A stretch of DNA of 64,000 bases from contig OX597824.1 of the NCBI GenBank assembly GCA_951406725.2, positions 5,394,001 to 5,458,000 on the forward strand, in the 5' to 3' direction. The DNA is from Octopus vulgaris. Taxonomy: Eukaryota. Made by a program: the position numbers. Below, one piece after another: positions 30,177 through 32,064 of this stretch (positions are counted from its first letter, which is position 1; each line of letters begins with the position of its first letter).

Positions 30177-31198
30177 CACACACACATATGTATAATATGT
30201 GTGTATGTGTGTATGTATGTATAACATATAGACACACACACACACACACACACACAAATTCACGTACGAAAGTAACATAGAAACCATATAATTGAATTAA
30301 TGTAAAACTAAGGCCATGTTTTACGAGATTTAAACAGATTTATAGAAAACAGAACACGATAAACTAGACGAGTCGAGGAGGCGTCACCTGAAATAATCAG
30401 TGAATCTTTTTTGTATATATTTATTCATAAATTATCGTTATTTTGCATCTTAAAATATTACATTATACTTCGTTTATTCCAATAAATATTTTGATGCAGG
30501 TGAGGACAAATTTTTGAATGAAATTATTTCTCACTAGACTGTGTAGTACGTTCCTATATTCAGAAGTTACGTATCCAAGTAAAAGATCTTAAAAAAACTG
30601 CTTAATATGTATATTTTAGTTGACGCTAACTTCGTTTTTGTTTTCTGTGTGTTAGGTTTCGCAATGCAGTGAAAGTGATTTATTTTAACTGGTTAAATTC
30701 TGACAGGTGTAAATCTTTTTTGTCTATGATTTTTTTTCCCTCTAATTCAAATATAATTTAATTTAACACCGACTCTGATTTCAATATATTTAGTTTCTGC
30801 TTCACGCAAGCGAGTCTTTGAACTTCTATTAGCTTTTGACGAAGCAATTCTTAATTCAGTTTCTTTAGTTTTAATGCATAAATATTTTATTAACTCTTTG
30901 CAGCATTACACTTGTGGAATTTATGTTAATATTTTATTAGTTCATTTCTACAGTTCTATATTTAAGAAATGAAGAATTATGTACATTATTAACATTATTT
31001 ACATTTGACGGATATTTGTCCTCATCTTATTTTTTGTTAACACAATGTTTCGGCTGATATACCCTCCAGCCTTCATCAGGTGTCTTGGGGAAATTTCGAA
31101 CCTGGGTTCTCATTACTAACGTATTTTTCGATGTTATCATTCTTCTTCTTCTTCTTCTTCTTCTTCTTCTTCTTCTTCTTCTTCTTCTTCTTCTTCTT

Positions 31199-31229
<31 letters not shown>

Positions 31230-31283
31230 TTATTATTATTATTATTATTAATATTATTATTATTATTATTATCATTATTATTA

Positions 31284-31344
<61 letters not shown>

Positions 31345-31463
31345 CATTATTATTATTATTCGGAATTTTGGGGTTAGTAGCCCACGCTCTTAACCACTAC
31401 GCCATATTCCCATGGGACATATGCTCTTAACACCAAGATTCCGAGTTCAATTCCAGGGAGTGA

Positions 31464-31512
<49 letters not shown>

Positions 31513-32064
31513 GTCGAAAAATACCTTAGGAATGAGAACACAGGTTCAAAATTTCCGCAAGACACCTGCTGAAGGCAGGAGGGTATATCAGATGAAATAG
31601 CAAACAAGATGCGGACAAATATCCATCAAATGTAAATAATGTAGCTCATTTTTGTATTTTCGAAAGTACAAATCCGAAACGCTGAAGAATAGGATATATT
31701 CAGAGAGAACACTACAACCATCAGTAAGGGAAAAAGATTTTTTTTGAAAATCGAAACCATCTGTCAGAAAAGAAACCGTGAGAGAACACAAAAGAAAGAT
31801 CATGGAATTAAGATAAAATAACAAAAAGTTAAAATAAAACAAAAAAACAACGAGTGAATCTTTACGTGGTCGCCTGACTTGCTTGATATAACAGCCAAAC
31901 GTCCTGCAAATCAAACTCTTCCACGATGAATAGGGGAGATTTGTCTGACACAGTAGAGTCTTTGATATACAAAAGCTGTAATGTTCATTGCTGGAACGGT
32001 TATATATTAGCGCCATCAAGCCATGTTAGTGCTTTAACATTGAAATGATATGCTGCTGCTGCTT

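What the first reader, a model, noticed from the sequence alone, without database searches (positions are those of the whole stretch)
30951..31643. Every tRNA-HHR locus has an inverted copy of its own 3' end fused to its 5' end
Seen: the inverted partner is near full-length here (junction palindrome CCCATGGG at about 31409-31416), ~150 bp at 44788-44939 and ~40 bp at 41725-41763. The main copy starts at about the same point each time while the inverted copy is variably truncated. Known: inverted pseudo-LTRs are a PLE integration signature. Inference: this is the strongest evidence in the window that PLE RT/EN mobilises family C.
Basis: partly seen in the sequence, partly recalled or inferred. 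Interest (0 to 1): 0.72.

Follow-up and report, generated by a model that had tools for sequence, protein, structure and literature searches.

The report
Inverted SINE pairs with Penelope hallmarks
Three copies of a small ribozyme-carrying mobile element each sit head-to-head with a partial mirror copy of themselves, the footprint that Penelope-type retrotransposons are known to leave, so this short element was probably copied by that machinery.

Summary
Family C occurs at 3 loci in the window (6 arms, no solo copy). All 3 are head-to-head pairs: a full-length copy starts at the same 5' base (±1). Abutting it is an inverted copy that keeps the 3' end and is near-complete, 156 nt or 47 nt long.

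New points:
- A 10-bp target-site duplication flanks the whole pair in 2 of 3 loci.
- In 3 of 3 loci exactly one arm carries a 33-nt 3' extension.
- The ribozyme has the features of the minimal hammerhead of Penelope-like elements (PLEs).

Inverted 5'-truncated partner, one-sided 30-40-bp "tail" and 8-10-bp duplications are the published PLE insertion signature.

Best reading: a SINE-like non-autonomous element copied by a PLE enzyme that primes on both target strands.

Caveats:
- No PLE gene lies in the window (0 of 283 ORFs).
- No comparison with an autonomous PLE was possible.
- Only three loci were available.
- The arms of a pair are less alike (83-87%) than full copies from different loci (92-93.5%), which a single-event model does not explain.

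Verdict: a new member of known kinds, of moderate interest.

The parts
30938..30947 (.). L1 target-site duplication, left copy (TAGTTCATTT)
   Evidence: 9 of 10 bases match 31642-31651. A score this high occurs in 73 of 1000 random position pairs, a figure inflated by microsatellites.
30949..30981 (-). L1 left arm: 33-nt 3' extension ('tail')
   Evidence: present in this arm and absent from the right arm.
30982..31135 (-). L1 left arm body, with an intact hammerhead core at 31047-31079
31136..31360 (-). L1 left arm internal microsatellite, (TTC)30 and (TTA)45 on the + strand
31361..31411 (-). L1 left arm tRNA-like head (A box kept, B box lost)
31409..31416 (.). L1 junction palindrome CCCATGGG: two GGG 5' ends joined by the filler AT (31412-31413)
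31414..31643 (+). L1 right arm: head with a deletion of about 20 nt, (AAT)n, body with a mutated hammerhead core (CTGCTGA) and an 11-nt deletion, short 3' end
31642..31651 (.). L1 target-site duplication, right copy (TAGCTCATTT)
41092..41101 (.). L2 target-site duplication, left copy (ATGATACGTA)
   Evidence: exact 10-mer, also at 41771-41780.
41100..41132 (-). L2 full copy: 33-nt 3' extension ('tail')
41133..41286 (-). L2 full copy body, hammerhead core at 41198-41230
41309..41600 (+). Unrelated tRNA-like SINE inserted into the (AAT)n of the L2 full copy; not part of family C
41646..41720 (-). L2 full copy tRNA-like head (A and B boxes)
41721..41723 (.). L2 junction filler GTC
41724..41770 (+). 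L2 inverted partner: last 47 nt of the element, short 3' end
41771..41780 (.). L2 target-site duplication, right copy
44541..44685 (-). L3 full copy body, short 3' end, hammerhead core at 44598-44630 with the ACGU palindrome intact
44686..44783 (-). L3 full copy (AAT)n and tRNA-like head (5' end at 44783, ±1)
44784..44786 (.). L3 junction filler TGT
44787..44909 (+). L3 inverted partner body (starts at body column 33)
44910..44942 (+). L3 inverted partner: 33-nt 3' extension ('tail')

Best explanation
Family C is a short non-coding retroposon with four parts:
- A decayed tRNA-like head carrying polymerase III A and B boxes.
- An internal (AAT)n tract.
- A 3' module made of a minimal type I hammerhead and a stem-loop.
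- Two alternative 3' ends, 33 nt apart.

Each of the three loci is most likely the product of one integration by a Penelope-like (PLE) reverse transcriptase/GIY-YIG endonuclease. The steps are all inferred:
1. The enzyme cuts both target strands about 10 bp apart.
2. Each 3'-OH primes reverse transcription inside the 3' module of a family C RNA, at one of two start sites.
3. One cDNA runs to the RNA 5' end.
4. The other cDNA is cut short.
5. The two are joined head-to-head with 2-3 extra bases.

Shown here: the anatomy, the duplications, the two discrete 3' ends and the hammerhead features.

Inferred: which enzyme acted, priming on both strands, and polymerase III transcription.
For: Structure of the pairs:
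- 3 of 3 loci are head-to-head, with both element 3' ends facing outward.
- The full copies start at the same base in 3 of 3 loci.
- Junction fillers are AT, GTC and TGT.
- A duplication flanks the whole pair in L1 (9 of 10 bases) and L2 (exact 10-mer).
- 3' ends fall into two classes, short in 3 arms and 33 nt longer in 3 arms, with exactly one of each per locus.
- No fragment of an older copy lies on the far side of any full copy.

Ribozyme:
- The core CTGATGA..CGAAAC occurs in 3 of 3 full copies, against 0.08 expected by chance.
- My own descriptor found 2 hits, against 0 in 100 shuffles.
- It has an unpaired base after position 9, a G10.1-C11.1 pair, a 5-bp helix I, and an ACGU palindrome in place of helix III. 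These are the traits listed for PLE minimal hammerheads (Cervera and de la Pena 2014, passages).

Published parallels:
- PLE insertions often carry an inverted 5'-truncated copy at the 5' end, and a 30-40-bp tail often at one end only (Craig 2021).
- Rotifer Penelope copies have inverted pLTRs with 8-10-bp duplications, a 31-bp tail and palindromes at the junction (Arkhipova 2013).
- An anole PLE protein cleaves and extends both strands in vitro. It starts at two internal RNA sites, and the stretch between them is the tail (Frangieh 2024, main text).

Relatives and control:
- Relatives of the 3' module occur as 129-nt tandem arrays: 8 of 9 library hits have a 43-aa period.
- The control SINE family has 0 of 5 copies with an inverted partner.
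Against: - No PLE RT or GIY-YIG domain is in the window. I scanned 283 ORFs and got 0 hits. Frames under 60 aa, and 103 low-entropy frames, were not scanned.
- Similarity of the 3' module to an autonomous PLE, the usual proof of partnership, could not be tested.
- Rfam found no hammerhead and no tRNA, even at E <= 10.
- L3 has no duplication (best match 6 of 7, at chance level).
- No direct or tandem pLTR-type copy is present (0 of 3 loci).
- The arms of one pair are 87.3%, 83.0% and 86.8% identical, against 91.7-93.5% between full copies of different loci.
- Private changes number 32 of 337 positions in partner arms against 19 of 519 in full copies (Fisher p = 0.0006). For L2 and L3 alone, where the labels rest on structure only, p = 0.009.
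- Arms of one locus share no private change.
- Only three loci were available.
Confidence: 0.6

Rival explanations
1. Two separate insertions per locus. An older 5'-truncated copy came first, and a younger full-length copy later landed exactly at its 5' edge in the opposite orientation.
For: Partner arms carry about 2.5 times more private substitutions than full copies. Arms of one locus are less alike than full copies of different loci. Published work reports that PLE endonucleases also cut inside their own repeats.
Against: This needs a landing within 2-3 bp of a truncation point in 3 of 3 loci. The duplications flank the pair, not the full copy alone. Reported self-targeting is to the tail or 3' region, which would give tail-adjacent rather than head-to-head joints. 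The control SINE shows no such pairing (0 of 5).
Confidence: 0.15
2. A LINE reverse transcriptase made the pairs by twin priming, and the hammerhead is incidental.
For: Twin priming also gives insertions flanked by a duplication and containing an inverted segment (recalled knowledge). A weak zf-RVT match lies at 15940-16209 (E = 0.0023, below the cut-off).
Against: In twin priming the two segments are different parts of one RNA. Here both arms carry the same 3' end. There is no poly(A) or simple-repeat 3' end. The two discrete 3' ends 33 nt apart, and the one-sided tail, are not LINE features according to Craig 2021.
Confidence: 0.1
3. DNA-level events after insertion produced the pairs. Either an inverted duplication arose by fork switching or snap-back repair, or a full palindrome later lost part of one arm.
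For: L1 is a near-complete palindrome with a palindromic centre. Error-prone repair synthesis could explain the more diverged partner arms (speculation).
Against: The duplications are direct and lie outside both arms. The arms end at different element 3' ends. A central deletion would have had to spare the first base of the full copy in 3 of 3 loci.
Confidence: 0.08
4. The pair itself is the mobile unit, either a foldback or MITE-like DNA element or a composite RNA template.
For: There are terminal inverted sequences and flanking duplications.
Against: The three pairs have different internal junctions. The termini are unequal because of the tail. A 5'-truncated copy of a composite RNA would keep the head-proximal part of the inverted arm, whereas the partners keep the tail-proximal part.
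Confidence: 0.04

Closest known systems
Insertion architecture of EN+ Penelope-like elements (Penelope/Poseidon, Neptune, Naiad; rotifer Pen families)
   Same: Shared features: an inverted 5'-truncated copy abutting the 5' end; a 30-40-bp tail at one end only; 8-10-bp duplications around the whole unit; a palindrome at the inverted junction; a minimal hammerhead upstream of the reverse-transcription start.
   Different: Family C has no ORF and no direct or tandem pLTR. It has a tRNA-like head with A and B boxes, and is 250-460 bp rather than 3-4 kb.
Sm-alpha / Sj-alpha SINE-like elements of schistosomes
   Same: A tRNA-derived SINE carrying a hammerhead ribozyme (Copeland 2009 passages).
   Different: Those carry the canonical type I hammerhead that Rfam-type searches detect. 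Family C has a minimal form that Rfam does not detect. The insertion architecture of Sm-alpha was not compared here.
Metazoan non-LTR retrozymes
   Same: Short non-coding hammerhead repeats proposed to depend on PLEs. Relatives of the family C module form 129-nt tandem arrays.
   Different: The family C copies here are single dispersed monomers behind a tRNA-like head, not tandem arrays. The published retrozyme RNAs are 170-400 nt. Circular RNA could not be tested.
Non-autonomous Chlamys elements such as MRC1
   Same: Non-coding derivatives that share their 3' end with autonomous PLEs (Craig 2021 passage).
   Different: Those are from a green alga, form pLTRs and head-to-tail insertions, and are not described with a tRNA-like head.
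L1 twin-priming inversions
   Same: One insertion flanked by a duplication, with an inverted part produced by priming on both target strands (recalled).
   Different: There the two parts are consecutive pieces of one RNA. Here both arms contain the same 3' region.

Membership tests
PLE-mobilised (non-autonomous) element | 3' module homologous to the pLTR/ORF junction of an autonomous PLE in the same genome | not testable with these tools
   There is no PLE ORF in the window (0 of 283), and no eukaryotic DNA collection was available.
PLE-mobilised (non-autonomous) element | Inverted 5'-truncated copy abutting the 5' end | tested here: met
   3 of 3 loci.
PLE-mobilised (non-autonomous) element | Optional 30-40-bp tail, often at one end only | tested here: met
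   A 33-nt extension lies on exactly one arm in 3 of 3 loci. If each arm carried it independently with probability 0.5, this pattern would occur with p = 0.125 (my arithmetic).
PLE-mobilised (non-autonomous) element | Target-site duplication around the whole complex unit | tested here: inconclusive
   L2 has an exact 10-mer and L1 matches 9 of 10 bases; L3 has none.
PLE-mobilised (non-autonomous) element | Partial tandem copy forming a direct pLTR | tested here: not met
   0 of 3 loci.
PLE-type minimal type I hammerhead (Cervera and de la Pena 2014) | CUGANGA and GAAA cores, an extra base after position 9, a G10.1-C11.1 pair, a short helix I, and a palindrome at 15.2-16.2 in place of helix III | tested here: met
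   The cores are present in 3 of 3 full copies. The full descriptor is met in 2 of 3; L2 has one helix I mismatch. The ACGU palindrome is intact in L3 and reads ACAU in L1 and L2.
Hammerhead ribozyme, Rfam families | Match to a curated covariance model | tested here: not met
   No hit at the gathering score or at E <= 10. This is expected for a form that lacks helix III.
Hammerhead ribozyme | Self-cleavage | not testable with these tools
   This needs a transcription and cleavage assay of monomer and dimer.
tRNA-derived SINE | Internal polymerase III A and B boxes in a tRNA-like head | tested here: inconclusive
   Read from the sequence, TGGCGTAGTGG and GAGTTCGATTCC fit the recalled box consensus at the usual spacing. 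ARAGORN found 0 tRNAs, and Rfam gave no tRNA hit at E <= 10 on the head alone.
tRNA-derived SINE | 3' end shared with a LINE, or a poly(A)/simple-repeat tail | tested here: not met
   The ends are ..AATAATGTA(C) or ..ATAGAACTGTA, with no A-run.
Non-LTR retrozyme | Tandem repeats, each unit with a hammerhead | tested here: not met
   0 of 3 loci are tandem. Only relatives from the protein library are tandem.
L1-type twin priming | The inverted and direct parts are different, adjacent parts of one template | tested here: not met
   The arms overlap over 47-134 aligned positions of the same 3' region.

The most novel reading that the evidence does not exclude
Family C would be a true SINE-PLE partnership. 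A polymerase III-driven, tRNA-headed SINE has taken a single monomer of a PLE pLTR or retrozyme repeat as its 3' module, and a PLE enzyme priming on both target strands inserts it. This would put PLE-dependent SINEs beside LINE-dependent ones in transposon classification.

The more diverged partner arms would then mean that the second arm is copied from a different RNA pool or by a less faithful route.
Probability: 0.35. Interest if true: 0.6.

Novelty: new member of a known kind. Interest (0 to 1): 0.45.

Why it matters
SINEs are defined by their dependence on LINEs. Dependence of small hammerhead repeats on Penelope-like elements is so far argued from co-occurrence and sequence relatedness.

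A short element whose insertions carry the whole PLE footprint would give that link a structural test. The footprint is the inverted partner, the one-sided tail and the duplication around the pair. The test can be run genome-wide on thousands of small, easily aligned copies.

Such copies would also map the two reverse-transcription start sites and the 5' joints in vivo. At present these are known only from one in vitro system.

The unequal divergence of the two arms, if general, would bear on how the second arm is made.

Tried and rejected
- **Search for a PLE gene in the window.** Of 386 stop-to-stop frames of at least 60 aa, 278 passed an entropy filter. With 5 others that makes 283 scanned against Pfam, and none matched RT or GIY-YIG. 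The only hits were a decayed mariner and a sub-threshold zf-RVT.
- **Rfam.** I searched the window at gathering scores, and three sub-regions at E <= 10. There was no hammerhead and no tRNA. Only plant miRNA-precursor models scored, because the L3 pair folds as a long hairpin (84.5 bits against a cut-off of 230).
- **Fold of the L3 full copy.** It is no more stable than shuffles (z = -0.21).
- **Protein word-index search with the short frame over the hammerhead.** I did not read the stop through with a changed code.
- **P0002.** This is a 56-aa-period repeat protein at 30% identity. I treat it as a weak or chance likeness.
- **Full-text search for four family C strings.** It found 0 papers.
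- **Editing-type hypermutation as the cause of the diverged partner arms.** Rejected, because the changes are a mix of transitions and transversions.
- **The composite-template model.** Rejected, because of which part of the partner is kept.

Full report
**What is there.** The window is 35.9% G+C, has no N, and is full of microsatellites. BLAST and nhmmer with profiles of the element's head and body find family C at three places only. These comprise six arms with E <= 2.8e-11, and the next best hit has E = 0.079. Each place is an inverted pair:
- L1: 30949-31643.
- L2: 41100-41770, interrupted by an unrelated SINE at 41309-41600.
- L3: 44541-44942.

The repeat finder gives arm complementarity of 82% over 131 nt (L1), 84% over 51 nt (L2) and 87% over 106 nt (L3).

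**Anatomy of the element.** Read head to tail, a full copy has four parts:
- A head of about 75 nt. Its TGGCGTAGTGG and GAGTTCGATTCC fit the polymerase III A and B boxes as I recall them. The head is too decayed for ARAGORN (0 genes) or the Rfam tRNA model (no hit at E <= 10 on the head alone).
- An (AAT)n tract, expanded in L1 to about 45 TTA and 30 TTC units.
- A body with a hammerhead-like core.
- A 3' region with a small stem-loop.

No run of four T lies in the sense strand of the full copies apart from one in the microsatellite remnant of L2. A polymerase III transcript could therefore run through the element. This last point is inference.

**The ribozyme.** CTGATGA..CGAAAC occurs in the three full copies and nowhere else, against 0.08 expected by chance. 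A descriptor that I wrote requires helix I of at least 4 bp, helix II of at least 4 bp closed by G-C, GAAA, and U-H. It finds the L1 and L3 full copies and nothing in 100 shuffles. L2 fails on one helix I mismatch.

The motif has the following traits:
- One unpaired base after CUGAUGA.
- A G10.1-C11.1 pair.
- A 6-bp helix II and a 5-bp helix I.
- No helix III. In its place is ACGU in L3, and ACAU in L1 and L2, which is consistent with CpG decay.

These are the traits reported for the minimal hammerheads of metazoan PLE pseudo-LTRs, which are thought to act as dimers. That paper also notes pairs of such motifs 100-700 bp apart on opposite strands (Cervera and de la Pena 2014, passages read). 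Rfam has no match at any threshold tried, so the assignment rests on these motif features. Cleavage is untested.

**The pairs.**
- In all three loci the two element 3' ends face outward and the 5' parts meet.
- The full copies begin at the same base, GGGCATATGG.. (±1), which corresponds to position 1 of the tRNA-like head.
- Both L1 arms begin there, although the right one lacks about 20 nt of the head.
- The partners begin at head position 1, body column 33 and body column 110.
- Between the arms lie 2-3 extra bases: AT, GTC and TGT.
- The L1 palindrome is simply two GGG starts around the filler AT.
- A direct repeat flanks the whole pair in two loci. L2 has an exact 10-mer at 41092-41101 and 41771-80. 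L1 matches 9 of 10 bases at 30938-47 and 31642-51.
- In 1000 random position pairs, scores as high as those of L1 and L2 occurred 73 and 34 times. Most of the high random scores come from microsatellites.
- L3 has no duplication.

The six arms end at only two places:
- Three end at ..AATAATGTA(C): the L1 right arm, the L2 partner and the L3 full copy.
- Three run 33 nt further, to ..ATAGAACTGTA: the L1 left arm, the L2 full copy and the L3 partner.
- So each locus has exactly one long and one short end.

With independent 50:50 ends this pattern has p = 0.125, so it is suggestive only. The discreteness of the short ends is clear, however.

**Controls.**
- The unrelated tRNA-like SINE has 5 copies of at least 137 nt, and none has an abutting inverted copy.
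- No fragment of family C lies beyond the full copies, so a young copy did not split an old one.
- The three pairs have different internal junctions, so they are not copies of one composite.
- A 5'-truncated copy of a composite RNA would keep the head-proximal part of the inverted arm. The partners keep the tail-proximal part.

**Comparison with print.**
- Craig et al. 2021 (passages) describe PLE insertions as 5'-truncated and often in partial tandem. [quoted passage not shown]
- Arkhipova et al. 2013 (passages) describe rotifer Penelope units closed by an inverted pLTR. These have 8-, 9- and 10-bp duplications, a 31-bp tail on one of the inverted pLTRs, and palindromes at the inverted junction. 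The pLTRs suffice for mobilisation in trans.
- Frangieh et al. 2024 (abstract and whole main text) show that a purified anole PLE protein cleaves and extends both strands. It starts reverse transcription at two adjacent internal RNA sites, and the stretch between them is the tail.
- From their numbers the anole start sites lie 85-92 nt after the hammerhead cut. In family C the two ends lie 53-62 nt and 95 nt after the predicted cut (my count on the alignment).

Family C therefore shows the published PLE footprint in four respects: partner, tail, duplication and minimal hammerhead. It lacks two PLE features, the ORF and the direct pLTR.

**Relatives.** A 38-aa stop-free frame across the L3 hammerhead (P0001) was run against 1.84 billion representative proteins. 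It gave 9 hits at E <= 0.001. Eight of them (P0003-P0010, 86-205 aa) consist of units with a 43-aa period that are 48-57% identical to the query. In other words they are translated 129-nt tandem repeats that include the hammerhead region. The 3' module therefore belongs to a wider family that elsewhere forms retrozyme-like or pLTR-like tandem arrays.

**Most likely mechanism (inferred).**
1. A PLE enzyme nicks both strands about 10 bp apart.
2. Each 3'-OH primes on a family C RNA at one of the two internal start sites.
3. One cDNA reaches the RNA 5' end.
4. The other cDNA stops early.
5. The ends are joined with a few untemplated bases.

Internal initiation would also suit a polymerase III transcript with an undefined 3' end.

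**What does not fit.**
- The window has no PLE gene. 283 ORFs were scanned; short frames and 103 low-entropy frames were not.
- The arms of a pair are not each other's nearest relatives. Within pairs identity is 87.3% (n = 134), 83.0% (n = 47) and 86.8% (n = 114). Between full copies of different loci it is 91.7-93.5%.
- Private differences from the majority base are 6 of 187, 6 of 187 and 7 of 145 in the full copies. In the partners they are 12 of 134, 13 of 156 and 7 of 47. Fisher p = 0.0006, or 0.009 for L2 and L3 alone, where the labels are purely structural. In L1 I named the more decayed arm the partner, which biases that locus.
- The changes are of mixed type, and arms of one locus share none.
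It is the main argument for two insertions per locus.
- Against two insertions stand the duplications around the pairs and the 2-3-bp precision of the joints.
- Different source RNAs for the two arms, or less faithful synthesis of the second arm, are possible but untested. One partner change (CTGATGA to CTGAAGA in L3) is the state seen in most of the tandem relatives, which is a faint hint of a different source.

**Novelty.**
- tRNA-derived SINEs with a hammerhead are known: Sm-alpha and Sj-alpha (Copeland 2009 passages).
- Hammerhead repeats have been proposed as PLE dependants (Cervera and de la Pena 2020 passages; de la Pena 2020 review passages; Goubert 2022 passages; Li et al. 2026 preprint, abstract and passages).
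- The Li preprint has no occurrence of 'tRNA' or 'tail'.
- My searches listed no paper that describes a tRNA-headed SINE with the PLE insertion footprint.
- That library omits most subscription journals and Repbase Reports, and I read no supplements. The claim is therefore only 'not found'.

**Left unchecked.**
- The rest of this genome.
- Any autonomous PLE.
- The source organism. The composition and microsatellite load resemble what a paper reports for penaeid shrimp, where recently active Penelope copies are also reported (passages). That is a guess and was not tested.
- The closed metagenome and viral collections.
- The origin of P0002-P0010.

Noticed in passing
window 18788-18987(-), 37307-37508(+), 40754-40893(-), 41309-41600(+), 42593-42789(-): A second, unrelated tRNA-like SINE family has five copies at 75-88% identity. 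One copy is inserted into the (AAT)n tract of the L2 family C copy. None has an inverted partner.
   Followed up: partly
window 19573-20413 (-): Remnant of a mariner/Mos1-type transposase: HTH_48 at E = 1.3e-10 in 20177-20413, and a weak Transposase_1 match in 19573-19815.
   Followed up: no
window 51195-51662 (+): An open frame of 156 aa matches Pfam Kei1 just above its cut-off (26.1 bits against 25, E = 8.6e-06). It may be an exon of a host gene.
   Followed up: no
window 35238-36674: A 1.4-kb purine-rich tandem array with a period of 19-21 nt, open in all six frames. There is also a 610-bp (TATG)n at 32867-33476.
   Followed up: no
window 44579-44863 (-): The L3 pair scores 84.5 bits on a plant miRNA-precursor model (cut-off 230), purely because it folds as a long hairpin. 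If transcribed through, the pairs could yield double-stranded RNA.
   Followed up: no
proteins P0003-P0010 (library hits): Short predicted 'proteins' that are translated 129-nt tandem hammerhead repeats related to the family C module. P0010 holds the same unit in two frames. Their source organisms are unknown.
   Followed up: partly
window 15940-16209 (-): A weak match to the zinc-binding region of reverse transcriptases, below the cut-off (zf-RVT, 19 bits against 27.5). It may be a LINE fragment.
   Followed up: no
window 45315-45362 (+): A weak match to the family C head profile (E = 0.079), about 370 bp right of L3. It may be the head of another tRNA-like repeat.
   Followed up: no
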